Source: Eremomyces bilateralis CBS 781.70
Taxonomy: Eukaryota
Strand: one strand, 5' to 3'
Length of the DNA: 46,520 nucleotides
Assembly: GCA_010015585.1 (NCBI GenBank)
Contig: ML975163.1
Positions within the stretch are counted from its first letter, which is position 1; the number at the start of each line of letters is the position of its first letter. The notes beneath the pieces were generated by a model, which saw only the letters and a program-made list of their open reading frames with translations, was not told the origin of the DNA and made no database searches. The position numbers and the translations under genes were made by a program. Shown here one piece after another: positions 3,168-38,062 of this stretch.

Positions 3168-3737
3168 GGTGATGGCTTCGGACGGAGAGCTTATAGTAGT
3201 ATACTTATGGGAAAATGGCGTCGGTAGTGGGTTCGGATCGCGGCGTCTATCCAGTTATCAAATACTCGGTGCATGACACCATTTCCTTGCGACGACACAA
3301 TTCAGAACAAGAAATCGCATATAAGAGCCTATGGTTCAGGCAGTTTGCAATTCTAAGCTACATCCGCTACCACCTGCCGTGAACACTATAACTTCGGCTT
3401 TTTGAAATACTCTTATCGCCACCAGCTCCGCCGATTTCCTGGGATGTCGTGATACTCGGGTGAAAACAAGAAAAGGGGGGCAAGGCTCCAAACACAAATC
3501 GGGATCGAACAATCGCGGCTCCGTTCCGTCCATCTTTTGTCCAGTGTGGTCGCGTATCATGTGAACTCGTTATTCGGAAACTTGCTTGTCGTAGTCGTCG
3601 AATTAAAGTGGGAAGGTGAACGGAAACGGAGCCCATGACTATGCTAGCACTTTCGGACGCGCCTGAGGAGTCGATACACACACTACTGGGTTGTCAGCTC
3701 ACGGTCCTTAAATGACTCCGGCCCCTCAATGTTTACC

Positions 3738-5321
<1,584 letters not shown>

Positions 5322-18015: not shown

Positions 18016-18579
18016 TTACGACCACCGTTTCTCTCCACCAATCTCTTTCAATCCACCGATCCGTTCCAAATCCAGCGACTGATACCGATCCGCATCCGAC
18101 TGCTGATACGGCGGCAGGTTCTCCTTATCGTTGACCGGCGCCATCCCAACGCTATTGGGCTTATCGCCAACCCGCACCACGACCACCCGGCCCGACTGGC
18201 GCTTGCCCTGCTTGTCCAGCTCGTCCGGCAAGGTGATACGAATCTCCGGGACCGGGCTCTGGGGTGGCGAGTTAGAACTGGCCATGAGGTTCTGCTTCTC
18301 CTGGATGACGTAGACGGACTCACGGCCGTATGGGGCGGCTTGGATGCTCAGGCCGCGAGGGTTCCGGGGGGTGAGGGGCTCTTCGGATATGGAACCAGTG
18401 CGGCGGGAGGAGGCGTTGCGGCGTCGGCGAACGCGGCGGAGGACGAAGAGGAGGCCGACGCAAAAGAGGGCGAAGACGAGGAGGGAGAGAAGGGCGATGA
18501 TGAGCTTCACCATCGTTGGGGTGAGAGTGGACTCGTTGCCGTCGTCACGGACGACGAGGGAGCGTTGAATAGCAGGCAT
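18016..18579 (-). CDS. Single-pass membrane protein (187 aa) with PxIxIT and LPPY motifs
   Basis: Hydrophobic stretch LIIALLSLLVFALFCVGLLFVL followed by RRVRRRR. Coding-like C/G third-position bias. Confidence 0.82.
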   Translation of the reverse strand: MPAIQRSLVVRDDGNESTLTPTMVKLIIALLSLLVFALFCVGLLFVLRRVRRRRNASSRRTGSISEEPLTPRNPRGLSIQAAPYGRESVYVIQEKQNLMASSNSPPQSPVPEIRITLPDELDKQGKRQSGRVVVVRVGDKPNSVGMAPVNDKENLPPYQQSDADRYQSLDLERIGGLKEIGGEKRWS

Positions 18580-18813: not shown

Positions 18814-19013
18814 CTGTTCGCAGATAAGGGTCAGCATCATGTGCATATTGGACTCTAATTGACGTTATGATAGTCTTCGAGCAACAGCAAAGGGAATCGA
18901 ATGTCCCAAATCAAACAGCAAGTAGTAGAAAGCGATAAATGCGACTATCGTTGGTGTTGTTGCAGACCGTTGGTCCTTCTTACTTACGGAATGTAGCGTG
19001 GAGTTCGACTTAC
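18814..19013 (-). other. Probable 5'-UTR intron of the membrane-protein gene
   Basis: Donor aag|gtaagt at 19013 (second gtaagt at 18987), branch point gctgac near 18835 and acceptor aacag ending at 18814. Confidence 0.6.
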
Positions 19014-22000
19014 CTTTGGGCGCTGGATGAGGGCAAGTTAGGGCAAGACAAACAACAGATTGATTTGACTTCGTTCGGATTCGAAAAGAGCGATAGAAGT
19101 AAACGAGAGACGATCCGATACAACCAGCTGAAAGAGTGAAGCTGGAGTATGGAGGAAAGAATGTATCTGGTGGTGGTGGAGGAAGAGGAGAGATAGTGAA
19201 GGAGAGGAAACAAAAGGGTTGATGTTGGTCGAAGGGGAGACAAGACAGGCACAATGGAAAAGCAGCACGAGGAGAAGAACCAAGAAGAATACGACAGGAG
19301 TGGAGTTGGCTGCAGACGGTGACCGGTGAACAACTGGGCTCCCTCGAACAGGAGTGGTGTGTGCATCGCTGCGGCGGGTGTGCCTGGCAGAAGCGCTCAG
19401 GGCCTCCCCAGCCGCAAACAACCCAACAACCAACGAGCGAAGGAGTTGTCCTCTTTTGTGTCTTGGCTTCAAGGAGCAAGGCAGATCAACATTCAGTCCC
19501 CACACCGAAAACCGAGAAACCTTTCCACTGTGGGTGGGATAGCGTGGCGCCTTCGTTCAAAACGGTTAGCATGCGACGTTGCACGGATCGTCGGCGCGGG
19601 ACCGTTTGGTCAGCTAACCGTATTAGGAAATATTGAAGCCGGGATTGGAGATTGCGATTTCGTGATCGGACTCCAACGAACTGCTCCTTTTTGGCCGTTT
19701 TGTTGGAGAGCGCCTAAAAAGCACACAATGCGCAGGGGGATCTCGTGGACAGGTGGACTCATGGCTCTGGGACGTGGTTGATTCTGGAAATAAATCAACC
19801 TTGAGCGCAGGGTTGATTAATGATTAGAAGGCTTGGTTATCGATTCCATGTCCCGACCATGCGAAGTACGAAGCAATGGCGATAGGGAACGTGCCGTAGG
19901 AAATCCGATGCTAGTGTTTTCCAATCCCGCTCTGTCGTGCTTCACGAGACTTCACGACGGACTTCGTCTTCGCATCTTCTCATCTCATTCCCCGACGGAG
20001 AATTCGGGGTGGGTACAATTTTCCTGGGTACATAAAAAACCCTTGGCTCCTGAAAATAGGGTCTTGCTGAATCGTCAATGCACTGTCACGAACTGATGGG
20101 CTGGCGGGCTGAGCCTCGCTCGTATGAATGGACTCAAAGGGATGAGACGACGATGCAGGTTTGAACTTCGAATTCAATCATGTATATGTAGTTGACGATA
20201 TTATCCTTACCTGCACAAGCGGCGGACAACAGCTCCGCCAGTTTATCTACACTCTCCAGTCCCTTGAAGATAAGATCAGGTTCCCATTTCTCAGATCACC
20301 TTAATAAGTGGGGTTCTCCTGTGATGCCAGGCTCGTTTCGCCTTCTTCTCTTCTTCTCTTGCCTTGCTATCACTGCATTTTGAGAGGCTGGCGACCTACT
20401 TAGTTACTCGGCCTCTGACGCCAAATGTTACAGCCTTCGGAGTCTCGGAGGGCATGGCACTTCTATCTCGTGGTGGCTGGCCCAACGCGAGGCTAACTGA
20501 TGCCATCATGGCACATGGGTACCATAACCACCCCGAACTTCCTCCTGGAATCAAGAGAATAATTTCTCAGATGGTCGTCCGAGGTTTGCGGAAGGTTCTG
20601 GTCTTCCGGGCGAATGAATTGTCGAATGGGGGACGCTGAGAAGCATCGTCATCCTGGTGATCGCAGAGGAAGAAGGATGCCAGCCGCCAAATATCCAAAC
20701 TCACAAACACCATGATGGGAACTTAGGGGACTCAGGTATGACGATTGATGTCCCTTGGCAGATGCTCAACTTGTCGACATGACTATCATCATTTCCCTTC
20801 TCTTCACGATACGATGCATTCATAAGAACTCGCAAAGTTAGTACGCCCGAGACGGCCGACGCATACGAGGGGTTACTCGGGTAAGATACCTCCGTCGGGG
20901 TGATGGCATCCTATCCACAGTTTCCCAAAGCTGCGACGCGAATCCAGGCCCAAGCATCGGCGTCCTCGGTACCTAATAAATCCCCCGACAATCGCACGAT
21001 GGTGAAAAGTGTGAAAAATTGCTCTTTGATCTGGCGCTGGGATATCATAAGGAGGTCGTTCGGTGTCTTTCCATCCGAGTCTTCCATCATTTCCGATAGC
21101 AGCAACCTCCTTTTCAAATGAGCACCTCTCTAGCCTCACCACTAGACCGTAGATGTGGAAGATCGAACCATGATATTTACGGAATATCACATCCAGTGGT
21201 TTTGCTCCCGGGCGGCTGCAATGGACTACATGAGGGTACCAAGTACGAAGCCGGTGGTCATCCCGGACGGTATTTATGTCGTGTCGTGTGAAGTGTCACT
21301 TAGGCGTTGCCTGTCCCACGTCTCATCGTTGCCCACGCCGAATGCGTTACACATATATCGACTAACTCGCCCCTGGCCCGTCAAGTTCATGATGGATCCG
21401 GAGCTGTTGTACGGTCTCGGATTTATCTGATGAATAGGGTACCCGCAGAAAGACAATCCGCCAAAGGTGCGTCGTATCAACCCTGGAGATTGTTGCTAAA
21501 ATTATGATTAGCAACCCACCTGAGTACCCGAACACAGTCGTATAGACCCTAATTGATTGGCTAACATATGGTAACGTTACCATTTACCGTCTGACGGGAG
21601 GTATGGTAACGACTCCACCATTTGGCTGGTTTAGTCTCCGTTCTATTTCTGCCTATCCGGGGAAACTCTTTGCTTGTGGAGGCCTGGAGATGATTTGGGT
21701 TATCGATCAGATCAGTGCTAAGCATCACGAGGGATATCGACAATATTGTGAGTAATTATACAGGAATTCGAGGTTTATATCCTACCTGAATAGTATCCCA
21801 ACTTTCGCGCCTAAGCACATCGGTATGGATAGATGCCGGAGCGGATCTAGGAAAACCTCATCACCTGTACCGTATCTAACCAGCGATTCCCCTCTGCACT
21901 GCTGGTCGCTGATGGGCTTTGGATGGCTGGCTGCTGTGATAGTTCGGTTATGAAGAACGGTGCCTTGTCAAACCGCTCAACTATCTCTGTACTGGCCAAT

Positions 22001-24204: not shown

Positions 24205-27200
24205 ATGGTGTCTAGACGACCGAATGGGAGACGGATTCCTGCACTGCCCAACAGCCAAGTAAGTTTGCTTCTCGACTTTTTCCATATTTTGACATGTTTG
24301 TTGGTTTCCCCTTCGGAGAACCCTGGCTAACCTCGAATTCAGCCTAGAAATGCCACCCATCCTAATTATGACTCCCCTTTAGATGACGAGCACTTTGATG
24401 AGGACTTTGAGGCTACCACCGCTTCAAGCGTCAGCACGCCAGGCGACAGTACCATCCTCCCGCCTATGAATCCCTTTTTGGAAAGTACCATCTGGGCTAC
24501 CACCGCCTCCGACGGTCTTAGCAATGGGATCGTCTCTACTGTACGAGATGCTTCCAGGAGTCGAGGTATGGCGATCATTAGAGCTTCCTCAGACCCCAAC
24601 GCGCTGATGATGCTCACAGAGCGACCGAGTCACCTTGGATCTTTAGCGGATACGAGTACCGCACGAAGTGGACAGTCGACTTCATTGTTCCCTTCGCCTG
24701 ACGCTGCGGGTTGGAATGGTCAACTCTCGCAGTGGCCATCCGCTCCCATGCAATCCTCTCTTTATCCGCGAAGCAATGGCGTGTCGCCATCCAGACAACG
24801 AAGCTCGCAGGCCACACCTCACTCACAGTCGGCTTTTGAGGGTGCCGCTCAGTCGTTCACGTCGTACCGCACACCTCTTCCGCAACAGTCTGGTATGAAC
24901 CCACTCGCTCCGCTATTGGACTCCAACACCAGACTGTTGCGCAACGGCGACGCGACTCCAGGGGGTTCCATCACCGCTCTTCCCGCGGCCGGCAACGACC
25001 CGAACCACACACCGCCTACCACCAACCCGTGGGTCGAGGCAGGTGAGTTTAACTATCAACCACCCGACGATCGACGCAGCGTGACAAACCCCGACCACTT
25101 CGGCACGCACAGCGCGGCGGGATCACGAAATGGGAGTTTACCGCCATCGAGACATGGTGCAGATTCCGGTGGATTTTCTAAGCAAGCGGACGATTTCAGC
25201 CGATTCCCCCCTGCGTCGAGCCAGCAGTCTTCGGTCCGTCAGTCATCAGCGATATCCGGGCAGGCATATGGTCGTCGATACAACGGCTCTCCCAATTTTT
25301 TAGAGAATGAGGTGGCGATGCTTAACCGATTGAGAATCGAGGGCGGGATCGATCGTTCCAGTAGCTTGCATAAACCGGCGCTAAGCGTCAACGGCGCCCG
25401 ACCCGGATCCACGGCACAAGGACCCGAACCCCACGATCTTCGATATGCTCGCGCCAGTCTTCCAGATATCTTGCAACCCTTCAACGACGGTTCATTCAAT
25501 GCGGCGGGTTCATTTACGCCGGAGGGGCAGCCTGCATCCCTGGCCCAATTCAATAATCACCACGATCACCTCTCCAATCTGCGGAATCCCTATCGCAACG
25601 GTGCGGCGGGAAATAGGGGGGCCTGGACTCCCAATGGTGACGCCCTTCGCAATGGCACTTATTGTTCGACCGGCTCCACCCCTCCAACGCACGACCAGCC
25701 TCATCACCGCCACGATCTGACGAATCTTCCGTCGACCGGTCCCTCGGGGCATCAGCACCGCTCTCTTTCCTATGGCAACTCCTCTCTGCTGGAACGAAAA
25801 CTCCGTGGTTTGGAGCTCGATCAATCCCGTGTTGCCGCTTCGCCCCCGTCGAAGATCTCATCATCTACAGCCTATGCAAATTACCTTCAAAAAAATGCAC
25901 AGAATTCGTATCATCAGCAAATGTCCCAAGGGCAGCGGATTGGTGGATCGCCGCACCTCAATGGATATGCCAGCACGCAGTATAGCGTGCCTCTTTCCAT
26001 GCAATCCAATGCCGGGACCGGATCATCAATGTCAATGCAGCACTTGAACGGAATGCAGAATATGAATGGAATGATGCACTTGATGCCGGTGGAGATCCCG
26101 AAAGGACCGCGGGAGCAAGAGGGATCCGTGGGCTTGCGAAGCGCGCTTCTAGAGGAATTCATCAACACTTGGAAATTTCGGAAATGGGAATTGAAGGTAT
26201 GCTATTCAACAGCATAGAACGTCTGAAGGATCCCACTTTTCGGGGTGGACGAACTTGAATGACCTTCGCGCTATCAACCCAACCAGTGCAAGGGCACGAA
26301 AGTTCGTCCATGCCGGACTAACATCATGCTCAGGACATGCGCCACCACGTCGTTGAATTTTCCGGGCACCAGCTTGCATCACGACAGATCCAGGACAAGC
26401 TCGGGTCGTCCAACAGCGAGGAGAAAAGCCGATTCTTCGAAGAGCTCCTGCCGAACGCGACGCAGCTGATGGCCGACGTCTTCGGCAACTACGTGATCCA
26501 GAAACTCTTCGAGCATTGTGATCAGAACCAGAAGAAGCTCCTCGCCATGGAGATGAAGACCCATGTGGTGAGCCTCAGTGTGCAGATGTACGGCTGCCGA
26601 GTCGTGCAGAAAGTAAGTGGTGCTTTCAGTCCGACCTTCGACCCCCTTGCTAAACATCGTGATCAGGCCCTCGAGCATATCCTCGTCGATCAACAAGCAG
26701 AGCTCATCAAAGAACTCGACGGCCACGTCCTCCGTTGCGTCAAGGACCAAAACGGCAACCACGTCGTCCAGAAAGCCATTGAGCGCATCCCGTCCGAACA
26801 CATCCAATTCATCGCTGACGCCTTCACCGGCCAAGTCGGCCAGCTCGCCAAGCACTCCTACGGCTGCCGCGTTATCCAACGCATGCTTGAGCGCTGCGAC
26901 GACCGCACAAAGCGCACCCTCCTAAACGAGCTGCACGGCGAAGGGGACCGGCTCATCGCGGACCAGTACGGGAACTACGTCACGCAGCATGCGATCGAGC
27001 ACGGCTCTCCCGAGGACCGCACGAAGATAATCACCCACGTCAAGACGAGGATTCTGATGTTCTCCCGACACAAGTTCGCGTCCAACGTCGTGGAGAAGTG
27101 CCTCGTGCACGGCACCTCGGCGCAGCGCCACGAGATGATGCTGCGGATCCTCGAGCAGTGCCCGCGCAACCCCGGGGTGGCCAGCAACGAGGCGCTCTTC

Positions 27201-27614
27201 CAGCTCCTGAAGGACGCGTACGGGAACTACGTCGTGCAAAAGCTGCTGGACACCGTCGACGACGAGGACTACGAGCTGTTCGCCGCGCAGTGCATCCCCG
27301 AAATGCCGCGCGTCAAGGAGTTCGCCCAGGGCAAGCAGGTCCAGGCGCTCGACGAGAAGCTGCACCAGCGCGCCCTGTATCGCGCAATGCCGACCCTGAC
27401 GCCCTCCGGCTCGGGGACCCCGCCGCTGGAGGACGACACGCAGAGCCCCGATGGCGTCTCGAACCCGAGTCCCAGGGAGGACATGCATATAGCGCTATCC
27501 ATGCGTCCGGAGTTGAATGGGAAGGCGTCCGCCGGGATTCAAGCACAGTTCTCCGTCCCTGATATCGGCGTCGAGCCGTTTCCTGAGCCAGACTCAGACC
27601 CGGACTCGTCATAA
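24205..27614 (+). CDS. PUF3: Pumilio/PUF RNA-binding protein, Puf3 type (exons 24205-24258, 24343-24565, 24620-26196, 26334-26612, 26667-27614; about 1026 aa)
   Basis: Eight PUF repeats with recognition helices SRQIQ, NYVIQ, CRVVQ, NHVVQ, CRVIQ, NYVTQ, SNVVE and NYVVQ. Long low-complexity N-terminus. The 5' exons are less certain. Confidence 0.92.
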
Positions 27615-28669
27615 CTGGTTGAGCTGGGTTGAACCACCTCTTCTATTCATTCCATCCCATCAATCGTTTGTAATTCAAGAACCCCCGGTCACTACTGTCA
27701 GTGAGCCGGTCCCGTCACCCCTTCGATTCGCACTGTAATCCTCTTTTCAATGTTTTAATCCCCGTTCAAATCAATCTTTCCGGTGTATTTTTGCCTTTCC
27801 CTTCTCTTTATTTCACTCCCTTCCAACGGCGTCGAAAAACGGCAGAAAAAGGAAAAACAGGGGGAGCACGGGATGATCGCCTGGTCACGACTCACGATTC
27901 TCCCGTCTAACATCACTCTAGACTCGCGACCACGGTTGCGTGCACGGTAGCATATTTCGATTAGTGGGTGTACAATCGGTTCGGTCGGATTAGGTGGTTG
28001 CTTTCGTTTTTGGTGTCGCGTCTCTCTTTTTAATGCAGCTGGGGCTAATTGTTCATGAATGCCATTCCTTCTACCCTCGTTTCTTGCGTTTCGGCAGATT
28101 TAACTAATGGCTTCGCCGTATCTGCTTGGATAATTCGCCTCCACCTCATGTAATGCTCCTACCAGTTTCGTGGTTTTCGGTGTTGTTCCTCCATCCTGCC
28201 GTCGCTCCAGTCTCGGCAATCTGCAGACGGATCCGGACCGGTGCTGACAGTAGATGGTATGAATGGTCTGAAGGCGCCTGGTTGGCATGGAATATCAACA
28301 GATGGAAGGATAGGGTCCAGTCGGACACCGTTTCGCTTATATGGAGTGGTGCAACGGGCTCTACTTTCTGGGTTCGGTCGGTAAGGTACATGTTATGCGG
28401 ACTGTTCATGTTAGTCGGATGCAGGTATTGATTGTATCGTAATTCTATCTCCGGGTATTCTCATGAGCCCCATGAATCAGGGAATAAATGGGTCGGACCC
28501 GGTGGGCGGGCATGGTTGGCGTATTTTGGGATCTCGCCGGGAAACGAAGATAAATGCATAGTAAATCAATGGCTAATCGAAATCCCTTACTCTTTGATCA
28601 TGGCTTTTGCTATGGGAGTGATTCATTTCTAAGGCCTAGAGGCTTAATCTTACAATTCCATCTATACCA

Positions 28670-30108
28670 TCATCCCTCATTCTCCTCGTCCTCCTTCCTC
28701 TGCCTCTCCTCCTCCCCCACAATCTCCTTCCACCGCTCCGCAAACTCCTTGAGCGCGTCACCCCCCCCGCGGCTGGCGTCCACGACGTCCCGGGGCAGTT
28801 TATGAGCGCTGTACTGCTGCGAACTGAAGTTGTACGCCTCCGGGTCATCACGGTGGACGAGACGGAGTTCGGGGAGATGAGGAAGCAGCGCGTCGGGATT
28901 GAGGAACTCGGAATCGGCGGGTTCGGCAGTGTCAGTCACGGCGCCGTTGGTAGCTTCGGGACGTGGTGGGGTGGAGGAGAGGTGCAGTCGGACAATTTCC
29001 AAGGGCGTGAGCTTCTCCTCATCATCCTTCGCATCTGAGTCAGGCGGAGACGGCCTCTTCGGCATCTCCGCCACCTCTGCATGCTCCTCCGTCAACAGCT
29101 CCTCCCAACTAAACAGCAGCGGATCCGTCCGCGGCGCCCACGGGTTGACGTCGATCAACCAGACGCGCTCGTGGGCCGGCGGGATGTACACGTCGAAGGC
29201 GTAGTCCGGATCGGGGAAGGCGTGCTGGAGCGTGCGCGTGAAGAACTCGAGGATGGTGGCGATCAGCTGCGGGCGGAGGGGGAAGAGGAAGTCGAAGTGA
29301 TTGAGGTCGCGCTGAGAGATGCTGAGGAGGCGGCGGTTGCGGACGAAGCAACGGAATTCGAGGGACGGGTTGAAGTTGACGGATTTGCGGAGGACGAGAT
29401 GGTAGGGGATTTCAGGGATGCTGTCCGGTTTTCTCGCCTCTTCATCGCCGGTTGCTTGGGCTTCTGATGTCTCAGCCGGACCGTCTGCTTCTTCCTCCCG
29501 ATCCGTCTCCTCACAGTCATCAAACACATGCTCCAAATCGTGCGTCACGAAATCCGAGCTCTTCAGCAACAAATACACATCATTGGGCGTCCGACACTCC
29601 ATGCTATTCGTCGCCGAGATCCACGTCGCATCCTTCGGCGCGCTCCAGTTCAGCTTCGGGTGCACCTTGCCGCCCAGCTCGGCGATGGTGGCTCTAATCG
29701 CCAGGTGCACCTCGCGCCACGCGGTGGACGGGTCGTCGTCCTCATCGTCATCGTCGGACGAGGAACCGCCTTGCTCGGCGGAGGAGAAGATTCCGCTGTC
29801 GTCGTCGGACCACTCGTGGCGGGGGGTGTCCTCGGAGGGGAGGATGATGCCATCAGCGCGGAGGTAGGAGAGGAAGGCGGGGGGGAGCGGGATGAGACGG
29901 GCTTTTGGGGTGACGGAGCGGTATCTGTATTATTAGTCTCGGTTTGACAATGAGTAGGCGTAATAGTTACTCACTTAGGATGCCATGAATGGTAGGAGCA
30001 GTTTATGATGTGAGATTTCGTCAGCAGAGGGAAGGTTGGTAATATGAGATTCTCCTCTTCTACCGAACTTCCCGGCTCATTTAAAATTTCAAGATTACTT
30101 GAAGCCAT
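28670..30108 (-). CDS. CDC123: Cdc123/D123 ATP-grasp eIF2 assembly factor (exons 30108-29975, 29924-28670; about 462 aa)
   Basis: [49 protein letters not shown] and WLIDVNPW motifs. Confidence 0.96.
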
Positions 30109-30418
30109 ATCTGCAATCCAAAATCCGTCGAAAGATGTCCAAATCAATGGTGAAGAAATGTACGTCGTGAAAGTCTGGATGATGGTCGAGAATTCGAGAT
30201 TATGACTCCATTCTCCACAGTGCAACCTTGATGGCGATCTCGGCCATGACTCGCGCATTTGCCCCACCTCCATTTCTAAAGCCAAACTTCACCACCATAT
30301 CAATGACATTCACTCTGGAGTTTCCAACTAAAATCTCATGTTTAGATAAAACAATGACCCTCACCGCACCGTCGTAAACTGAACATATCCCCCCGACGCT
30401 AAAAACCTTCAACCCAAC

Positions 30419-30983
30419 ATGTCTGACAACGTCGGCCTCACCACGCCACGAGGCAGTGGCACCTCTGGCTACGTCCAGCGCAACCTCTCCCTCCTCCGAC
30501 CGCGCGACCGTGTCGAACCGTACTCGAAAGAGCTACGACATCAGCAGCGCAAACCAGATCCGGAAATCCTGGAGCATGAGCGGAAACGACGGCTGGAAAA
30601 CGAGGTGTATAAACTGCGCGATCGCTTGGAAGAAGAAGGGTAAGCAACCCACCTGGCGACCCGTTGCCACGCCCCTTACACAGAGCCCAACTGACTGTGT
30701 CCGTAGTGTTAATGACGATGACATCGACGACCAATGCGACGCGCTCCGCAAGAAGCTGCAACAAGACTTCGAGCGGACAAAATCGCGCCCCACGGACGCG
30801 AAGGGACTGAAGTCGCATCAGGTGCACGACCTAGCGAAGGCGAAGATCGAGGAGACGGAGAAGATGCGACGCGCGTTGGGGATCCGGGAGGATTACGAGG
30901 AGGGGAGCCATTGGGAGAAGTCGGAGCAGCGGATGCGGGATGCGGTGGAGGAGAAGGAGGGGGATCGGGATCGGGATCATTGA
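30419..30983 (+). CDS. CWC21: Pre-mRNA splicing factor Cwc21 (exons 30419-30639, 30707-30983; about 165 aa)
   Basis: [33 protein letters not shown] and [13 protein letters not shown]...ALGI motifs. The intron gtaagc...ctgac...tag lies at 30640-30706. Confidence 0.96.
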
Positions 30984-31620
30984 TGATTCGAGGACAACAG
31001 GTCGAGTTAAGGTCGCAAAGTGGGGGTTAACTCCTGTTTCAGGGTTCGGGCTCGCCCTACGGCGCTTGGGAATCATGGCTTCTGTCAATGAGGTATTGGC
31101 GTCGCGCCAGAGATACGGACTCGAATAGAATTCCGACACGGCTACGTCCAGGTGTTGGGGAGGTTCAAAATGGATGATCATATCCAAATATTAATGAAAA
31201 TCTAATATACACAAATACACATCTATCATCTCCGATCATTCCAGTCGTAACCCTCGTGAAGCCCATGGAGCAATGAGCATGCCACGATAACCATCCACGG
31301 CCACCATTGTACGGCCCGAAAGTTGGGATCCGAGCCACCGACACTTTTCCAAACTGTGAATTCCTCTCATTCGTGCCATTTCGTCTTATATGCTCCATTC
31401 GATAAGGTATTCCTTCCAGGCAACCACAACACGTGGCAGGCCTCCAGCAGGTGCTTGAACGAGAGCAGGTTCGTAGTACAACCACGCCTTGCTGCTAGAA
31501 GTTACGGTCCTGGTCTATATTTTATGCCGCCCGCAATCCGGCTGTTGCCAGATTAGTCAAACTTGCCACCAAGCGCGATAGCGATGTGTATCGGTGCAGG
31601 GTCGAAGGCGACTAAAAATG

Positions 31621-32097
31621 TCACTGCAGTGCTGGATTCGCCGCATACAGCATTCGCATATAAGATTGCAGGTCAAGTTGCTGGACAAGCCGGCGCCAGT
31701 GAAGCATGGGATACGCCGCGATGGCAAAATTGATCTGGTCCTTCGGATGCAGATGCCGGAGGATGTTGAGAAGGACCTCGTTCGGCAGCATCCCCTTCGC
31801 CAAGGGGTTCTCATTCCAGCCGTTCGGCACCCAAAAGTCCGGTTCGAATTTTCCCGTGTTTTTATGGATGCCGATCGCATGGAAGAGGCTGAGGGGCGGG
31901 ACGATCTCGGAATGCTTGAGACGCATGAAATCATAGCATGCGAAGACCAGTGCCATGAATTCGTGGGGCTTGAGGTGGTCGATGACACATCGTCGCAATT
32001 CCGGAGGGAGGTCGAAGAATCGGAACGCGTTCTTGGATCTCCTAAATGGGCCCGGCCGTCTTAGTGCAAGGATATTGGAAAGGCTATCCGGAGCCAT
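31621..32097 (-). CDS. Small protein (158 aa) made of two F-box-like motifs
   Basis: FFDLPPELRRCVIDHLKPHEFMALVFAC and MLPNEVLLNILRHLHPKDQINFAIAAY both match the LPxEhxxxIhxxL F-box pattern. The ATG context is catcATGG. Confidence 0.72.
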   Translation of the reverse strand: MAPDSLSNILALRRPGPFRRSKNAFRFFDLPPELRRCVIDHLKPHEFMALVFACYDFMRLKHSEIVPPLSLFHAIGIHKNTGKFEPDFWVPNGWNENPLAKGMLPNEVLLNILRHLHPKDQINFAIAAYPMLHWRRLVQQLDLQSYMRMLYAANPALQ

Positions 32098-32107
32098 GAT
32101 GGATTTT

Positions 32108-32874
32108 TCAGTCAACGTGCGGCTTGGTGGATTCAGATCGCGGTGACAGGATCGAATATGCCTTCTTAGCGACGAACCAGCTTAGGAGCCCGGTCACACA
32201 GATGTACACCCCAGTTGGTACCAGTGATGCCGGGAGGATATTCAAAAGGTAGGGGTCCAGAACTACGGCAGGTAAGCTTCATGCGACAAATAAGCAGCTG
32301 CCAGACTAACTGATATCCACAGGGACAGGATAAGGCTTAAGCATCAACTCGGTGTCAGGTGAAATGTATTCAGGAGAAGCCTGGATCCGCAAGAAGTGCT
32401 TGGACGTGTGTTTCAATTCGGGCACTGGCTCCTGGACGATGCAAGAGTAATCACGATTCTCCGAATACAACACCAGTGATTGGATAAGTTCTGGTACCTG
32501 GAGGACTTCGGAGATGGACAGTACGTCGACGTCAATTTTGGTCGGGTACTATTATACGTCAGGAAACGTCGAACGTGATAATCAGTCTTTCCTACTGTGG
32601 CAGGCCAGCAAACCCGCACTTCAAAGCGCTGGCCGATTCGCAGGTTCTCCAGGAGGTACCAGGAGGAATTATCCGGAGCGCTAAACGAAACTGGTAAACT
32701 GGCGGGCTCCTGGAGGTGATGGGGATGCAGACTGAGCACGTCCAGATCGTCGAGGGTTGGATGGATGTCCAGGATCGGAATGCTGGGCTGAGCGATGAAA
32801 ACGACCTTCTCGACGTTGGCCTGGACAAGTAAAACAAAGAGTGTGAGAATGTGGAGAAAGAGAAGTGAGGGCAT
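32108..32874 (-). CDS. Type I membrane protein, Pga1-like (putative GPI-mannosyltransferase II co-activator) (exons 32874-32596, 32548-32311, 32262-32108; about 223 aa)
   Basis: Signal peptide ending AN-VEK, then WYLLENL...RFEVRVCWPAT, VDIILDPYLLNILPASLVPT and a C-terminal TM. Two canonical introns keep the frame. The family name is from motif recall. Confidence 0.78.
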
Positions 32875-32952
32875 GATGTCGGTAGGCTTCAGTTCACCAC
32901 AGTTTATATGATCATCACAACAACACCGTCAAGGGCTGATGAAGCTATCCGA

Positions 32953-32988
32953 GGGTGACTCTGTGGGTGACTCTGTGGGTGAATCCGT
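32953..32988. repeat. 12-nt tandem repeat (GGGTGACTCTGT x2 plus a variant) in a divergent promoter
   Basis: gggtgactctgt gggtgactctgt gggtgaatccgt read directly from the sequence. Confidence 0.85.
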
Positions 32989-33521
32989 GGGGGGAGGTGA
33001 TAGTAAAGGGCGAAGCACTGCATGAACCATTTACAACCCCAATTGCATAGATATCGTTACCGTCAAGATGGAGACAGTAGATTTAGGAACAACTTATCCT
33101 GATATATGGATTCTGATATATGGTCCCTGATAGTGTATTAGAGAGTGTACCAGTAGAGAGCCGTGAGAATGTAGAGTGAAGATGGGCAACTCCTATCGAG
33201 GGCAAGGCCGAAGATCAGCCACCGCCCTCGAACGCGCTTTCCTCAGTTGGCTGAGAGTGGAAGTGGAAATGGGGAGGATGGCCCGAGCTTCAAGTACTAG
33301 ACCCCATCGGGTATGGGCGACAACACAATAAACATCCATCGCCATCTCTTCTCCTTATCCCACCGCCTGTTCACAGAATCTCTCTCCATCCGTCTTGAAC
33401 CCTCTCTCAAGATTCATCCTTCTTGTATCCCCCTTCCTGTGAGCCATTTACCAGCTCACCATCGCTTTGCCATCCCTCATTCGTCTTCATTCCACTGGAT
33501 CCCTCCGAATAACCACCCAAC

Positions 33522-35248
33522 ATGCGTGAAGTTATCAGCTTGAACGGTAGGGCCCCCACATACGCGCCATGTCCTCACAGAATATGCGAACGATGACTGA
33601 CAATGTCCTTATATAGTTGGCCAGGCTGGTTGTCAGATTGCAAACTCCTGCTGGGAGGTATGCGTCCCCTATTCCTCCGTCCATGGACAGCTCGGGATTG
33701 GTCGGTTGCTGTCATACGAGAATCTTTACTAATCCAATTTCCTACAGCTGTACTGCCTTGAGCATGGCATTCAGGTACGCTTGTCTCCTCCGAACCACTC
33801 TCATTGTTACCATATGCTAATCATCTTTTCGTGTAGCCTGATGGATATCTGACCGAAGAACGTAAAGCTGCCGACGATGACCAGGGATTCAGCACCTTCT
33901 TTTCCGAAACCGGTATGTTGATATTGATGCTTGCTCGGCCAATATCATGCTGAAAAAGAACCAGGCCAGGGCAAGTACGTCCCCCGCACAATCTACTGCG
34001 ATCTCGAGCCCAATGTCGTCGACGAAGTCCGCACCGGCCCGTACAAGAGCCTCTTCCACCCCGAGTACATGATCACCGGAAAGGAGGACGCCTCAAACAA
34101 CTATGCTCGTGGCCATTACACCGTGGGCAAGGAGCTCATTGATCAGGTCTTGGACAAGGTCCGACGTGTCGCCGACAGCTGCTCCGGACTTCAAGGTTTC
34201 CTTGTGTTCCACTCCTTTGGCGGTGGTACGGGTTCCGGTTTCGGTGCCCTGTTGATGGAACGTCTGTCCGTGGACTATGGCAAGAAGAGCAAGCTTGAGT
34301 TCTGCGTGTATCCCGCACCCCAGAATGCGACCTCCGTCGTCGAGCCCTACAACTCGATCCTGACCACCCACACGACCCTCGAGCACTCCGACTGCAGCTT
34401 CATGGTCGATAATGAGGCCATCTACGACCTGTGCCGTCGCAGCTTGGGCATTGAGCGCCCCAACTTCGAGAACCTCAACCGTCTCATTGCTCAAGGTGAG
34501 ATATTCTCTTGAAATTGTAATCGACAGGTCTAATCCGTATTCCAGTCGTCTCCTCGATCACTGCTTCCCTCCGCTTCGATGGCTCCCTGAACGTCGACTT
34601 GAACGAATTCCAGACCAACCTGGTCCCCTACCCCCGTATCCACTTCCCGCTCGTCGCCTACTCACCCATCGTCTCGGCTGCCAAGGCGTCTCACGAATCC
34701 AACAGCGTCCAGGAGATCACCTCGAATTGCTTCGAGCCGAACACCCAGATGGTCAAGTGCGATCCCCGCACCGGGAAGTACATGGCAACCTGCCTGCTGT
34801 ACCGTGGCGATGTGGTGCCAAAGGATGTCCATGCCGCCGTGGCGACCCTCAAGACCAAGCGCACCATCCAGTTCGTCGACTGGTGCCCCACTGGCTTCAA
34901 GATCGGTATCTGCTTCCAGCCCCCGCAGACCGTTCCGAGCGGCGACCTTGCCAAGGTCAACCGTGCTGTGTAAGTCCCCTTGGAAATCCATGATGAGATG
35001 GGTTAGCTAACTTGCATAGCTGCATGCTTTCCAACACCACCGCCATCGCCGAGGCCTGGTCTGCGCTGTCCCACAAGTTCGACCTCATGTACTCCAAGCG
35101 CGCTTTCGTTCACTGGTACGTCGGCGAAGGTATGGAGGAAGGCGAGTTCTCCGAGGCCCGCGAGGATCTGGCTGCCCTCGAGAGGGACTACGAGGAGGTC
35201 GCGGCGGACAGCCTCGAGGATGATGAGGGCCTTGATGCTGAGTACTAG
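33522..35248 (+). CDS. TUB1: Alpha-tubulin (exons 33522-33546, 33617-33657, 33748-33774, 33837-33912, 33965-34495, 34546-34969, 35020-35248; 450 aa)
   Basis: [41 protein letters not shown] signature and an acidic tail ending EY. Six GT-AG introns give 1353 nt. Confidence 0.98.
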
Positions 35249-35554
35249 ACGGCGAAACGTACAGGACCTATATCCCTGTTCAGGTCGGTTCTGATCGTTT
35301 TCGCACGCGGAAATCATTTCTCTGGTACTGGAATGCCTTGAAAGTCGAACTCTAGCGAATCACCCTTTACTCTTGCTTTGTTAAATAGGGAGATGGATTA
35401 GAACCGACATCGTTGGTGGCGAGTAATTCATATCTTAATGAGAGTCCAATTCTACACTACGGATGCCAATGCTTTGGATAAACTTCTCGTGATATGCACA
35501 TTGGTTACATTCGATCCACCCAAAACGGCCCATACATCTAGTGCGACCGGCTTT

Positions 35555-38062
35555 TTACTGGTCTGCGATTTGTGCCTTAACCCAAGACTCGAGCCCTCCC
35601 TTCGCAATAATCTCCTGCACATTCGGCGGCATCGACCCCACCTTCACATCCCACTCCTCCCCGCCGGCCTCTTTCACCAGCACCCGACTCCTCCGCAAAT
35701 CCCACGTCAGCATCCACCCTGTCCGCACCGTCCCCTTCTTCTCCGCGAACGCCGCCCGCAGCTTCTCCACCACCTTCGGACACTCCACGCCCAGCAACCC
35801 GTTGTTGATGCTGTTCCGCGCGAAGATGTTCCCAAAGCTCCCTGCGACCACCAGCGGGATTCCCTTGGCTAGGATGGCGGTGGCGGCCTGCTCGCGGCTG
35901 CTGCCACAGCCAAAGTTGAAGCCGGAGACGAGGACGTCGCCGGGGCGCGCGATCGAGGCGAAAGCGGTGTCGTAGTTGGACATGACGACTTCGGCCATTG
36001 TGTCTTTGGTGACGTTGTCTTGGTAGGTGTATTTGCCGGGGTAGATGCCGTCGGTGTTGATGTTGTCCGCGTCGCAGAGGACGATCTCGCCGGAGATCTT
36101 CTCGGGGAACCCGGGGAGGATCTCCGTCAGGTCATCGGCGGTCGGTTCGGCGGGGGGGTTGGAGGGAGTTTTGGCACCAGCTTCGGCAGTCGGCGAACCT
36201 TGCTCGGCTTGCTCGCTAGCGGTCTTGCTGTCCAGTCCCAGGTTCCCGGAGGACTCGACCTGCGCAATGAGGCTGTCCGCCTGGGACACGATACGTTCCA
36301 ACGCCTCCGCGATGCTCTCGGTCTTGTGCGCCTCGGGGTGCCGCCCGTCGCCGAAGCCGCGGACCACTTCGGCCGCGCTGCCGCCTTCGAACCAGCCGGG
36401 GCCAGCGATGGTACCCTTGAGCGCGCTCGCGGCCACCACCTCGGGGCTCGCGAGGTACGCCTTCGCGTCGACGCTTCCCATGCGGCCCTTGAAGTTGCGG
36501 TTGCTGGCGCTGATGCCCACTTCACCGGGCTCGAGAAGACCGGTGCCAAGGCCGATGCAGGGTCCACAGCCGGATGGGAGCTCCATGGCGCCGGCGGACG
36601 TCAAGATATCCCAGTCGCCGGACTCGACGGCGGCGGCTTGCTCGGCGACGGAGGCGGCAGAGATGTACATGGCGACGTGGGGAGCGATCTTGGGGATCGT
36701 CCCTTCCGGCGAGGACTCGGCGGCGGTGCGGAACACACGGGCAGCGGCGGCGATGTCGGAGCGGCGGGAGTTGGTGCACGATACAAGGTAGGCCTTGTTG
36801 ATCTTGATGTCCTGGCTTTCGAGCTCCGGGAGCGCGGTGGCCACTTTGACAGAGTTGGGGCCGGAGACGTACGGCGAGAGGGTGGACAGGTCGAGGTAGA
36901 GGTACTTCCCGTATTTGGCAGTTGGATCGGCAACCAGCGGGTCCTCGAAGAGGTCGTTTAATCGTTCGTGGTTGAAGCGCAGTTGCGTTGGGCTCGCGGT
37001 GGGGACCGATGTACCGTAGATAGCGGCTTCGGTGGCTTGCGCTCGCAGCCATCCTTGCAGCAGCGAATCGATCGGGAAGAGCCCTGACAGTGCGCCCCAT
37101 TCGGTGGTCATGTTGGCGATGGTGAGCCGGTCATCGATTCCGAGGCTTCGCATCGTCTCTTCCGCGCCGGTGAATTCGATCGCATGGTTCAAGACTTCGT
37201 CGTTGTTGAACAGACCACAGAGCGCAACAATGACGTCCTTACCGGTTACACCGGTTGGCAGGATTCCCGTAAAGGTCACTTTCGCAATCGGTGGGATTTG
37301 CCACCATGTCCGTCCCGTCGCCCATATGCTGGCCGCGTCGGTCCTCACGACCGGCGTCCCCAAGCACCCAACTCCACCATACATGTTGCTATGGCTGTCC
37401 GAAGCGACAACCAATGTTCCCGGCCAAGCATAACCCTCTTCCACCATCACTTGATGTCCAATGCCGTGGCCTGCCGGGTAGAAATCGACCCCTTGCGTCT
37501 TCGCGAACTCCTCGATCTGCCGATACTTCTTGAGGTTCGACTCGCTCTTGTTCTGCACGTCATGGTCGAGCGTCATCACCGTCTGCCGGTTATTATGGAT
37601 CTTCGACGCGCCGATGGACATGAACTTCGTCGCGACGGGCCATGAGTTGTCGTGCGTCATGCAGTGGTGTGGGGAGAGCGTGACATAGTCGCCGGACAGG
37701 ACGCGCTTCCCTTCCGGGAGGCCGAGGGAAAACTTTTGCACAATCTTCTCGGTCAAGGTTTGCGGGGTTTGCGTGGCAGTCTTGGTTGCGGAGAGGAACG
37801 AGGCTGCAATGGGATCCTCCAGTTGCGATTGGAATGCCCGGACATCTTGTCGCTGTGGCCGGGACGTTGAGAATAGGTGCCTCTGTAGTATGGACGGGTT
37901 CGAACGATGTGTGACTCGGTAGAAAGCAAGTCTTGATGCCCGCGACCACTATAATACAGGTCTCATTAGCTCTAGACAATAGCAGATGTGACGATGTGGA
38001 AGTACCAGTTGTCGCTGTATGGGCCGGCCAGTTGCCGTCAGCACTCGGTACAATTGCACCAT
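35555..38062 (-). CDS. LYS4: Mitochondrial homoaconitase, alpha-aminoadipate lysine pathway (exons 38062-38006, 37948-35555; about 816 aa)
   Basis: [31 protein letters not shown], Fe-S cysteines VSCTNSR and GCGPCIGLG, swivel domain GCGSSREQA, and an N-terminal presequence. Confidence 0.96.

What the first reader, a model, noticed from the sequence alone, without database searches (positions are those of the whole stretch)
31621..32874. Operon-like pair: double-F-box ORF starts 10 nt after the stop of a Pga1-like gene
Seen: after splicing, the Pga1-like CDS ends ...PHVD-TGA (32110-32108), followed by aaaatccatc and then ATG (32097) of a 158-aa ORF on the same strand in a different frame. Ten bases leave no room for a 3'UTR, terminator and promoter. 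Stop readthrough would not fuse the proteins, and the downstream AG sites I tested as alternative acceptors for intron 2 ran into a stop. Inference: this is either a dicistronic mRNA translated by termination-reinitiation or internal initiation, or a promoter buried in the upstream CDS with an overlapping 3'UTR. Polycistronic units are uncommon in fungi.
Basis: partly seen in the sequence, partly recalled or inferred. Interest (0 to 1): 0.8.

Follow-up and report, generated by a model that had tools for sequence, protein, structure and literature searches.

The report
Conserved Pga1 / F-box tandem gene pair
A small F-box-like gene starts ten bases after the stop codon of a gene for an ER-membrane GPI-anchor protein, and the same back-to-back pair is kept in many related fungi, so both proteins may be made from one messenger RNA, which is uncommon in fungi.

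Summary
The three-exon Pga1-like CDS (223 aa) ends at TGA 32110-32108. Ten bases later, in the +1 frame, a 158-aa ORF with two F-box-like repeats begins. Both match separately annotated proteins of Eremomyces bilateralis CBS 781.70.

The pair is not a quirk of this genome. Of 80 metagenomic fungal loci encoding a Pga1 relative, 39 carry the same small ORF directly downstream on the same strand. This holds for all 27 loci with a K-x-H-x-x Pga1 tail and at least 450 nt of downstream sequence. Spacers are 6-156 nt. Public annotations of Zymoseptoria and Aureobasidium fuse the two genes.

ORF2 is under purifying selection (dN/dS 0.05-0.28). The Pga1 message upstream of it is ATG-poor: 1 ATG in 679 nt here, and obs/exp 0.56 in loci with ORF2 against 1.05 in loci without. 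The spacers are almost ATG-free, and the Pga1 stop is nearly always TGA.

My best reading (about 0.45) is a conserved bicistronic unit in which ORF2 is translated by ribosomes arriving through or after Pga1. The main rival (about 0.35) is an ORF2 promoter nested inside Pga1. I obtained no RNA evidence, so transcript structure is untested.

The parts
32596..32874 (-). Pga1-like exon 1 (ATG 32874-32872; signal peptide and lumenal part)
   Evidence: The splice product is identical to the annotated protein P0019.
32549..32595 (-). Intron 1 (GT..AG, 47 nt), at the family's conserved position after CW-x-A-T
   Evidence: Intron gaps lie at the same position in related loci.
32311..32548 (-). Pga1-like exon 2. 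It holds the only internal ATG of the mature message (32344, the invariant Met162).
   Evidence: M162 is invariant in alignment A2.
32263..32310 (-). Intron 2 (GT..AG, 48 nt, phase 1). It contains one ATG (32282), which is spliced out.
32108..32262 (-). Pga1-like exon 3: C-terminal membrane helix, K-P-H-V-D tail, and stop TGA 32110-32108
32098..32107 (-). 10-nt spacer AAAATCCATC between the Pga1 stop and the ORF2 start. It is A/C/T only, has no ATG, and supplies A at -3 for the ORF2 ATG.
   Evidence: The junction shows no unusual RNA structure (z +1.21).
31621..32097 (-). ORF2: a 158-aa protein with two F-box-like repeats (about residues 27-81 and 101-153). Stop TGA 31623-31621.
   Evidence: The model has pLDDT 83.9. 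In relatives dN/dS is 0.05-0.28.
32098..32871 (-). ATG-poor stretch. After splicing it is 679 nt between the two start codons with a single ATG in any frame.
32181..32182 (-). Candidate alternative 3' splice site (ctcctaAG|C). With the intron-2 donor it would fuse Pga1 exons 1-2 in frame to ORF2 (358 aa). The acceptor is weak and its use is untested.
32903..32915 (-). Upstream ATG 32915-32913 (3-codon uORF) and a TATAAA-like hexamer 32908-32903, whose first base lies 34 nt upstream of the Pga1 ATG. It may point to a very short 5' UTR. It is not conserved in related loci.
31516..31526 (-). CATAAA/AATATA poly(A)-signal-like hexamers about 95-105 nt downstream of the ORF2 stop. Candidate shared 3' end (inferred only).

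Best explanation
The Pga1-like gene and the double F-box-like ORF form one conserved two-gene expression unit. Ten bases leave no room for 3'-end formation before ORF2, so the Pga1 mRNA must run into ORF2 and probably through it to a shared poly(A) site. That makes the message bicistronic in structure. I propose that ORF2 is translated from this message by ribosomes that reach its AUG from upstream, by one or both of two routes. In the first, 40S subunits bypass the Pga1 AUG and scan through the ATG-poor Pga1 sequence. In the second, ribosomes terminate at the weak TGA stop, stay on the mRNA and reinitiate at the first AUG downstream. Shown here: the anatomy, the conservation of the pair, purifying selection on ORF2, ATG depletion upstream of ORF2, and the TGA bias. 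Inferred: co-transcription, the route taken by ribosomes, and any functional link between an ER-membrane GPI-mannosyltransferase II subunit and a cytosolic F-box-like protein.
For: 1) Anatomy: TGA, then 10 nt, then ATG in the +1 frame.
2) Conservation: 39 of 80 metagenomic Pga1 loci carry the ORF2 family directly downstream on the same strand. This includes 27 of 27 loci with a [KR]xHxx tail and at least 450 nt downstream.
3) Spacers: 31 distinct junctions have spacers of 6-156 nt, median 56.
4) Public fused gene models: Zymoseptoria tritici (P0083, 388 aa), Aureobasidium pullulans (P0108) and A. subglaciale (P0041) show the same adjacency in named Dothideomycetes.
5) ORF2 is a real gene: dN/dS is 0.05-0.28 in the 6 of 8 pairs with finite dS, similar to Pga1. 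Identity to P0002 is 55%.
6) ATG depletion in the window: the spliced message from ATG1 to ATG2 has ATGs only at positions 0 and 483. Only 15 of 9168 sliding 682-nt windows on both strands have 2 or fewer, and 10 of those 15 are this locus. The CDS has 0 out-of-frame ATGs against 3.3 expected under synonymous resampling, P = 0.014. ORF2 itself has 13 ATGs in 477 nt.
7) ATG depletion across loci: with ORF2 (n = 20) 6.9 ATG/kb, obs/exp 0.56; without ORF2 (n = 21) 13.3/kb, obs/exp 1.05; Mann-Whitney p = 4e-6.
8) Synonymous-level avoidance falls in the 2nd, 3rd and 5th fifths of the CDS (ratios 0.53, 0.20, 0.34), against 1.0-1.6 in loci without ORF2.
9) Spacers hold 2 ATGs in 1852 nt where 21 are expected.
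10) The Pga1 stop is TGA in 28 of 31 junctions. ORF2's own stop is TGA in 12 of 20 non-redundant loci, and the Pga1 stop is TGA in 8 of 21 loci without ORF2.
11) Precedent: a 26-nt spacer dicistron in Glarea lozoyensis (PMC4471562, passages). The derived 9-nt IGG6 spacer supports reinitiation in yeasts and Aspergillus nidulans (PMC10352335, sections 7-8). Extra stop codons lower downstream expression (PMC11677970, passages). ATG under-representation before ORF2 is the signature of leaky-scanning bicistrons in green algae (PMC11291117, passages).
Against: No transcript or translation evidence was obtained.

The Pga1 AUG has A at -3 here and in 19 of 20 related loci, so ORF1 does not have the weak context found in algal leaky-scanning loci.

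Most related loci still keep ATGs upstream: a median of 5 between the two starts, clustered in the first and fourth fifths. These should intercept scanning subunits.

Reinitiation after a 223-codon ORF is generally inefficient (established knowledge).

The ATG-free run before ORF2 (median 207 nt, against 46 nt before the stop in loci without ORF2) is about the length of an ordinary 5' UTR, so it fits a nested promoter as well.

In Zymoseptoria tritici, Iso-Seq polycistronic transcripts were of low abundance next to overlapping single-gene transcripts (10.1101/2023.04.26.537486, passages).

Loci with and without ORF2 belong to different fungal lineages, and none of my tests corrects for phylogeny. 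Intron masks and ATG1 choices in the loci are approximate.
Confidence: 0.45

Rival explanations
1. Nested promoter with overlapping monocistronic transcripts. ORF2 has its own transcription start inside the Pga1 gene, probably in the last 200-300 nt. The Pga1 mRNA merely carries part or all of ORF2 as an untranslated 3' UTR. The pair stays together because the ORF2 promoter and 5' UTR are embedded in Pga1 coding sequence.
For: The ATG-free run before ORF2 has a median of 207 nt in 20 loci, which is 5' UTR-like. ATG avoidance is strong in the last fifth of the Pga1 CDS (ratio 0.34) and in the spacers. Adjacent same-strand genes with overlapping 3' and 5' UTRs are described as the usual source of apparent polycistronic transcripts in Zymoseptoria tritici (10.1101/2023.04.26.537486, passages). 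The Pga1 AUG context is strong.
Against: It does not explain the synonymous-level ATG avoidance in the 2nd and 3rd fifths of the Pga1 CDS (ratios 0.53 and 0.20). It does not explain the complete lack of out-of-frame ATGs over the whole CDS in this window. It does not explain the near-fixation of TGA as the Pga1 stop (28 of 31). I looked for no promoter motif inside Pga1, and none can be predicted reliably in fungi.
Confidence: 0.35
2. Alternative splicing or stop-codon readthrough makes a Pga1-F-box fusion protein, and the two-gene appearance comes from annotating only the major isoform.
For: One acceptor (AG 32182-32181) with the intron-2 donor gives an in-frame 358-aa fusion. Public gene models of 360-388 aa fuse the two parts in Zymoseptoria and Aureobasidium. 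In 13 of 31 junctions ORF2 is in frame with Pga1 and the spacer is open.
Against: Frames are spread 13/5/13 over the three phases and spacer lengths vary from 6 to 156 nt. No single splice or readthrough solution is therefore conserved. In this window the frame is +1, so readthrough cannot fuse the proteins. The window's acceptor is an AAG, which is a weak acceptor. The fusion would delete the Pga1 membrane helix and place an F-box-like domain behind a signal peptide in the ER lumen. The three fused public models join at different points, as predictor artefacts would.
Confidence: 0.05
3. ORF2 is translated from the shared mRNA only after a cascade of short-ORF translation and reinitiation. The early out-of-frame ATGs, or the Met162 ATG, would act like uORFs and couple ORF2 output to initiation-factor status.
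For: In related loci the remaining ATGs cluster in the first fifth and around the invariant Met162, with ATG-free zones after each cluster.
Against: This is post hoc. In this window there are no early out-of-frame ATGs at all. The ATG near Met162 follows from a conserved residue.
Confidence: 0.1

Closest known systems
Glarea lozoyensis glpks3-glnrps7 dicistronic gene and the derived IGG1/IGG6 spacer (PMC4471562; PMC10352335; PMC11677970)
   Same: It is in an ascomycete. Two ORFs lie on one strand, separated by a very short spacer without poly(A) signal or promoter (26 nt natural, 9 nt engineered, 10 nt here). The engineered spacer CAATCAAAC and the window's AAAATCCATC are both G-free. Reinitiation after a full-length ORF was shown with reporters, and adding stop codons lowered downstream expression, which fits a preference for a single weak stop.
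   Different: The Glarea pairs are split PKS-NRPS secondary-metabolite genes with a shared function, and co-transcription was shown by RT-PCR and RACE. Here the genes are functionally unrelated on present knowledge, the pair is conserved across many Dothideomycetes, and no RNA evidence exists yet.
Leaky-scanning bicistronic loci of green algae, and Drosophila stoned and Snapin (PMC11291117, passages; PMC7896298, listing only)
   Same: ATG codons are under-represented in all frames before ORF2. Inter-ORF spacers are short. ORF2 has the better +4 context (G in 11 of 20, against 0 of 20 for ORF1).
   Different: Algal ORF1s have weak Kozak contexts and short 5' UTRs. Here ORF1 has A at -3 (19 of 20 loci) and the 5' UTR length is unknown. 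Depletion is complete only in this window and partial in most relatives.
Iso-Seq polycistronic or read-through transcripts in Fusarium graminearum and Zymoseptoria tritici (10.1101/2021.11.08.467853; 10.1101/2023.04.26.537486; passages)
   Same: They concern same-strand neighbouring genes in filamentous ascomycetes, including a Dothideomycete. There were 321 loci in Fusarium and 224 supported transcripts in Zymoseptoria.
   Different: Those are mostly rare read-through products of genes that also have their own transcripts, and translation of the second ORF was not shown. Here the spacing (6-156 nt) and the sequence signatures point to an obligatory, selected arrangement.
80S-mediated reinitiation after inefficient stop-codon recognition in yeast (PMC11952965, abstract only)
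   Same: Translation of a downstream cistron depends on poor termination at the upstream stop. That would give a reason for keeping TGA.
   Different: It was described as an induced state in laboratory yeast on synthetic constructs, not as a natural conserved locus.

Membership tests
Pga1 (PF10333, GPI-mannosyltransferase II co-activator) | Match to the Pfam model at its curated threshold | tested here: not met
   P0019 scores 18.4 bits, E 0.002, against a cut-off of 20.
Pga1 (PF10333, GPI-mannosyltransferase II co-activator) | Clear homology to proteins that do carry PF10333 | tested here: met
   95 homologs at E <= 0.01, many with precomputed PF10333, for example P0021 at E 4.8e-42. The nearest Atlas clusters carry PF10333 on 42-60% of members, feature score 0.97-0.98, TM 0.84 and 0.61.
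Pga1 (PF10333, GPI-mannosyltransferase II co-activator) | About 200-240 aa with an N-terminal signal sequence, a C-terminal membrane helix and a dibasic ER-retrieval tail | tested here: met
   Read directly from P0019. The tail is K-P-H-V-D. Reading KxHxx as a dilysine-type motif is recalled knowledge, not a call.
Pga1 (PF10333, GPI-mannosyltransferase II co-activator) | Works with Gpi18 in GPI-mannosyltransferase II | not testable with these tools
F-box proteins (PF00646 / PF12937) | Match to the Pfam F-box models at curated thresholds | tested here: met
   PF00646 33.4 bits (cut-off 20.5), 2 stretches. PF12937 26.6 bits (cut-off 24.3). The best stretch covers only profile positions 4-25 of 43, which is the first half of an F-box.
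F-box proteins (PF00646 / PF12937) | Three-helix F-box fold like solved Skp1-bound F-boxes | tested here: inconclusive
   The model has pLDDT 83.9 and pTM 0.72, with two repeats of 3-4 helices. Foldseek against PDB gave no match at E <= 0.001. VIA wide gave a best Z of 2.7. The cyclin F N-terminus (which contains its F-box, from recall) aligned to residues 22-65 at only Z 2.1.
F-box proteins (PF00646 / PF12937) | Binds Skp1 and carries a substrate-binding domain | not tested
   No fungal Skp1 sequence was at hand. The protein has no third domain after the two repeats.
Fungal dicistronic gene translated by reinitiation (Glarea / IGG type) | One mature transcript spans both ORFs | not testable with these tools
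Fungal dicistronic gene translated by reinitiation (Glarea / IGG type) | Short spacer without poly(A) signal, promoter or ATG | tested here: met
   10 nt here. The 31 related junctions have spacers of 6-156 nt with 2 ATGs in 1852 nt.
Fungal dicistronic gene translated by reinitiation (Glarea / IGG type) | A single, weak upstream stop codon | tested here: met
   TGA here and in 28 of 31 junctions. In the window the next in-frame codons are not stops.
Fungal dicistronic gene translated by reinitiation (Glarea / IGG type) | Downstream translation depends on upstream translation | not testable with these tools
   This needs reporter constructs.
Leaky-scanning bicistron (green-algal type) | Under-representation of ATG in all frames before ORF2 | tested here: met
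   1 ATG in 679 nt here. Across loci obs/exp is 0.56 with ORF2 and 1.05 without.
Leaky-scanning bicistron (green-algal type) | Weak initiation context at ORF1 | tested here: not met
   A at -3 in the window and in 19 of 20 loci. Only +4 is non-G (0 of 20 G).
Leaky-scanning bicistron (green-algal type) | Short 5' UTR | not testable with these tools
   The TSS is unknown. A TATAAA-like hexamer starts 34 nt upstream of ATG1 in the window only.

The most novel reading that the evidence does not exclude
Dothideomycete fungi carry an ancient, obligatory nuclear bicistron. A cytosolic double F-box-like protein would be made only from the mRNA of the ER-membrane GPI-anchor assembly subunit Pga1. The upstream coding sequence would have been shaped by selection (loss of ATGs in all frames, a fixed weak TGA stop, an ATG-free spacer) so that ribosomes can reach the second start codon. 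That would be the first deeply conserved, housekeeping, translationally coupled gene pair in filamentous fungi, and it would tie output of an SCF-type adaptor to synthesis of a GPI-pathway component.
Probability: 0.35. Interest if true: 0.8.

Novelty: new member of a known kind. Interest (0 to 1): 0.65.

Why it matters
Natural polycistronic translation in fungi rests on very few cases, all in secondary-metabolite genes of one species. Long-read surveys cannot say whether second ORFs are translated.

A gene pair kept back to back in many related fungi offers a natural system for asking how eukaryotic ribosomes reach a second ORF. It comes with dozens of natural spacer variants (6-156 nt, all three frames) and measurable sequence signatures in the upstream cistron.

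It also matters for annotation. Public gene sets either fuse the two genes (Zymoseptoria, Aureobasidium) or may miss the small one.

It defines a small, uncharacterised protein family of two half F-box repeats with no solved structural relative, whose genomic partner hints at a link to the ER or the GPI pathway.

Tried and rejected
RNA evidence. The look-up of sequencing runs listed one run, X1, holding 0.90 of the sampled words. Its kind is only guessed and no RNA holder is listed. No statement on expression can be made.

Whole genome. None is held for this window.

Metagenome scan with the ORF2 family alignment. I scanned with the Pga1 alignment instead.

Transcript-derived contigs. I looked among the loci for poly(A) ends or short intron-less contigs spanning both genes. 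The 14 contig ends inspected had no poly(A) tail.

RNA structure at the junction. The 141 nt around the stop and start fold no better than shuffles (z +1.21). There is no sign of an IRES-like or pseudoknot element.

TATA-like box. The one starting 34 nt upstream of ATG1 is not conserved (0 of 20 loci with ORF2 have one within 150 nt).

Fold searches for ORF2 gave nothing above noise.

P0003, a 2350-aa protein with 41 matched stretches, is an unrelated tandem-repeat protein hitting a short FW.NE.GW motif. I dropped it.

L047/L048 at first looked as if ORF2 lacked an ATG. Reading the DNA showed an ATG 81 nt after the stop.

Literature. A search for Pga1, F-box and Dothideomycetes found 45 papers with 2 or more terms. 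None of the 10 listed concerns this pair, judged by title and abstract start.

Full report
WHAT IS THERE. All coordinates are on the minus strand. A three-exon gene starts at ATG 32874. Its introns are 32595-32549 and 32310-32263, and it ends ...KPHVD-TGA at 32110-32108. The 223-aa product is identical to P0019, a protein annotated in Eremomyces bilateralis CBS 781.70, a Dothideomycete of the order Eremomycetales.

After the stop come ten bases, AAAATCCATC. Then comes ATG 32097, which opens a 158-aa ORF in the +1 frame that stops at 31623-31621. This ORF equals P0001, which the public collections also hold as a separate protein from the same 623-kb contig.

WHAT THE TWO PROTEINS ARE.
- The upstream protein just misses the Pfam Pga1 threshold (18.4 bits against a cut-off of 20).
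- It nevertheless has 95 homologs of 182-388 aa in Dothideomycetes, Leotiomycetes, Sordariomycetes and others, and many of these carry PF10333.
- Its nearest Atlas clusters are Pga1 clusters.
- It has a signal peptide, a C-terminal membrane helix and a K-x-H-x-x tail. I read that tail, from recall, as a dibasic ER-retrieval motif.
- ORF2 passes the Pfam F-box and F-box-like thresholds through two half-length matches.
- An exhaustive profile search of 1.84 billion representatives found only 17 proteins at E <= 0.001. One is the query itself and one (P0003) is an unrelated repeat protein.
- The other 15 are proteins of 122-193 aa built like ORF2, with two copies of an L-P-x-E-L...F-x-x-A-x-Y...P motif.
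- The AlphaFold model is confident (pLDDT 83.9). It shows two repeats of three to four helices.
- Foldseek and VIA-align found no solved relative. Foldseek had no match at E <= 0.001 and the best VIA Z was 2.7.

THE PAIR IS CONSERVED. Three of the Pga1 homologs are longer gene models: P0083 (Zymoseptoria tritici, 388 aa), P0108 (Aureobasidium pullulans, 372 aa) and P0041 (A. subglaciale, 360 aa). Each consists of a Pga1 part followed by a double F-box-like part. They are joined at three different points, as gene predictors would do with two abutting genes.

A scan of metagenome contigs with a Pga1 alignment gave 204 confirmed relatives, of which the best 80 were kept. An HMM of the ORF2 family found a hit directly downstream of Pga1, on the same strand, in 39 of these 80 loci and nowhere else in them.
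- All 27 loci with a [KR]-x-H-x-x Pga1 tail and at least 450 nt of downstream sequence have the ORF.
- Of the 33 loci with other tails (mostly K-K-x-x) and at least 450 nt of downstream sequence, 5 have it.
- The 31 distinct junctions have spacers of 6-156 nt, median 56. ORF2 sits in frames 0, 1 and 2 relative to Pga1 in 13, 5 and 13 cases.
- All 15 family representatives from the profile search, and P0002, hit ORF2 positions in these loci at 31-69% identity. The family is therefore essentially "the gene after Pga1".
- ORF2 is under purifying selection. dN/dS is 0.05-0.28 in the 6 of 8 locus pairs with unsaturated dS, close to Pga1's 0.11-0.27.

SEQUENCE SIGNATURES UPSTREAM OF ORF2, IN THIS WINDOW.
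- The spliced message from the Pga1 ATG to the ORF2 ATG is 682 nt. It contains ATG only at position 0 and at position 483. The latter is the family's invariant Met162, in a T-at-minus-3 context.
- From the composition given I calculate about 8 expected.
- Sliding 682-nt windows over both strands of the whole 46.5-kb window have a mean of 12.3 ATGs. Only 15 of 9168 have 2 or fewer, and 10 of those 15 are this locus.
- The Pga1 CDS has no out-of-frame ATG in 224 codons. Resampling synonymous codons gives a mean of 3.3 and P(0) = 0.014.
- ORF2 has 13 ATGs in 477 nt.

SEQUENCE SIGNATURES ACROSS NON-REDUNDANT LOCI.
- The Pga1 message has 6.9 ATG/kb (obs/exp 0.56) in 20 loci with ORF2, and 13.3/kb (obs/exp 1.05) in 21 loci without. 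Mann-Whitney p = 4e-6. The background is 16-17/kb.
- Annotated proteins with the K-x-H-x-D/E tail have a median of 1 internal Met (n = 59). Those with K-K tails have a median of 3 (n = 23).
- Permuting each gene's own synonymous codons gives out-of-frame obs/exp of 0.75 with ORF2 (18 loci) and 1.16 without (20 loci).
- By fifths of the CDS the ratios are 1.31, 0.53, 0.20, 1.24, 0.34 with ORF2, and 1.17, 1.21, 1.60, 0.89, 1.03 without.
- Spacers contain 2 ATGs in 1852 nt, where composition predicts 21.
- The ATG-free run before ORF2 has a median of 207 nt. In loci without ORF2 the run before the Pga1 stop has a median of 46 nt (p = 1.5e-4).
- The Pga1 stop is TGA in 28 of 31 junctions. In the non-redundant set it is TGA in 19 of 20. 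ORF2's own stop is TGA in 12 of 20, and the Pga1 stop is TGA in 8 of 21 loci without ORF2.

HOW IT MOST LIKELY WORKS. Ten bases, or 6-20 in several relatives, cannot hold a cleavage and polyadenylation site plus a promoter. The Pga1 mRNA must therefore extend into ORF2. This is an inference. The open question is which RNA feeds ORF2.

Three features are what one expects if ribosomes travel to the ORF2 AUG from upstream on a shared message:
- ATG avoidance far upstream in the Pga1 CDS, partly at synonymous sites;
- ATG-free spacers;
- retention of the weakest stop codon.

Published precedents exist for both routes.
- Reinitiation: a natural 26-nt spacer dicistron in Glarea lozoyensis (PMC4471562, passages). 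Its 9-nt derivative supports reinitiation after full-length ORFs in yeasts and Aspergillus nidulans (PMC10352335, sections 7 and 8). Extra stop codons reduce downstream expression (PMC11677970, passages). In yeast, 80S reinitiation is triggered by poor stop recognition (PMC11952965, abstract).
- Leaky scanning: green algae show ATG under-representation before ORF2 (PMC11291117, passages).

WHAT SPEAKS AGAINST THIS READING.
- The Pga1 AUG has a good context, with A at -3 in 19 of 20 loci.
- Most relatives keep several upstream ATGs.
- The 200-nt ATG-free run is equally what a 5' UTR of a nested ORF2 transcript would look like.
- Overlapping transcripts are the commoner explanation for apparent polycistrons in Zymoseptoria and are frequent in Fusarium.
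- Loci with and without ORF2 come from different lineages, and I applied no phylogenetic correction.

I put the shared-message reading at about 0.45, the nested promoter at about 0.35, a reinitiation cascade at about 0.10, and a fusion protein at about 0.05. The first three are not mutually exclusive. One alternative acceptor (AG 32182-32181) would give an in-frame 358-aa fusion, but the varying frames and spacers in relatives speak against a conserved fusion.

WHAT IS MISSING. No RNA evidence was obtained. Notes of earlier agents on other pieces of this genome speak of transcribed and spliced genes. An RNA data set for this strain therefore probably exists and should be laid on 31300-33300.

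COMPARISON AND NOVELTY. The locus works like the known fungal and algal bicistrons in its anatomy and signatures. Membership in either mechanistic class is open. The single-transcript criterion could not be tested, and the weak-ORF1-context criterion of the leaky-scanning class is not met. My literature search found no paper on a Pga1/F-box pair (45 papers with two or more terms, 10 listed by title and abstract start). I rate it a new member of a known kind. It stands out for its depth of conservation, for involving a housekeeping gene, and for the many natural variants it offers for testing.

Noticed in passing
window 32181-32182 (minus strand): An AG directly after the last in-frame stop of the ORF2 frame. 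With the intron-2 donor it would give an in-frame 358-aa Pga1(exons 1-2)-ORF2 fusion lacking the membrane helix. The acceptor context is weak (AAG).
   Followed up: partly
window about 18890-19570 (minus strand): The only other stretch of the window with 2 or fewer ATGs per 682 nt (5 of 9168 sliding windows). It lies upstream of a 187-aa ORF (18016-18579, minus) and looks pyrimidine-rich. It may be a long ATG-free leader or promoter.
   Followed up: partly
P0019-P0113 and loci L001-L080: Pga1 orthologs fall into two tail types. One ends K-x-H-x-D/E (named members are Dothideomycetes) and is always followed by the F-box-like ORF. The other ends K-K-x-x (Leotiomycetes, Sordariomycetes and others) and mostly is not.
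   Followed up: partly
L043, L044, L049, L051 (about 3716-4692): A K-K-tail Pga1 followed 89 nt later by a larger ORF (about 295-325 aa) that matches the double F-box HMM only weakly (E 4e-4 to 4e-7) and from residue 130 on. The linkage may be older than the small-ORF form.
   Followed up: no
P0083, P0108, P0041 (public proteins): Public gene models in Zymoseptoria tritici ST99CH_3D7, Aureobasidium pullulans and A. subglaciale fuse Pga1 with the downstream F-box-like ORF at three different join points. They are probably predictor artefacts and worth correcting.
   Followed up: partly
P0019 and homologs (names from sources): Automatic names for these Pga1-family proteins disagree ('GPI transamidase component PIG-T', 'Protein PBN1', 'Phosphatidylinositol-glycan biosynthesis...'). 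None of those families appeared in my Pfam scan.
   Followed up: no
loci L006, L019, L022, L040, L050, L064, L074, L075 and window 32263-32310: A second intron at the V-D-I|I-L-D-P position occurs only in loci that have ORF2 downstream. Every refined gene model in loci without ORF2 has at most the first intron.
   Followed up: no
loci L001, L008, L040, L065, L075 (-53) and L036, L039, L056, L057 (-59): Recurrent upstream ATGs at fixed distances before the chosen Pga1 start in loci with ORF2. This could be a conserved uORF, a different true start, or a very short 5' UTR.
   Followed up: no
window 26322-37948: I read the neighbours from ORF translations only and did not search them. They are a Pumilio-repeat protein (26322-27614, +), a CDC123-like gene (28670-29929, -), an alpha-tubulin with introns (about 33928-35000, +, divergent from Pga1) and homoaconitase (35555-37948, -). 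Other intergenic distances here are about 500-1000 nt, so the 10-nt spacing is an outlier.
   Followed up: no
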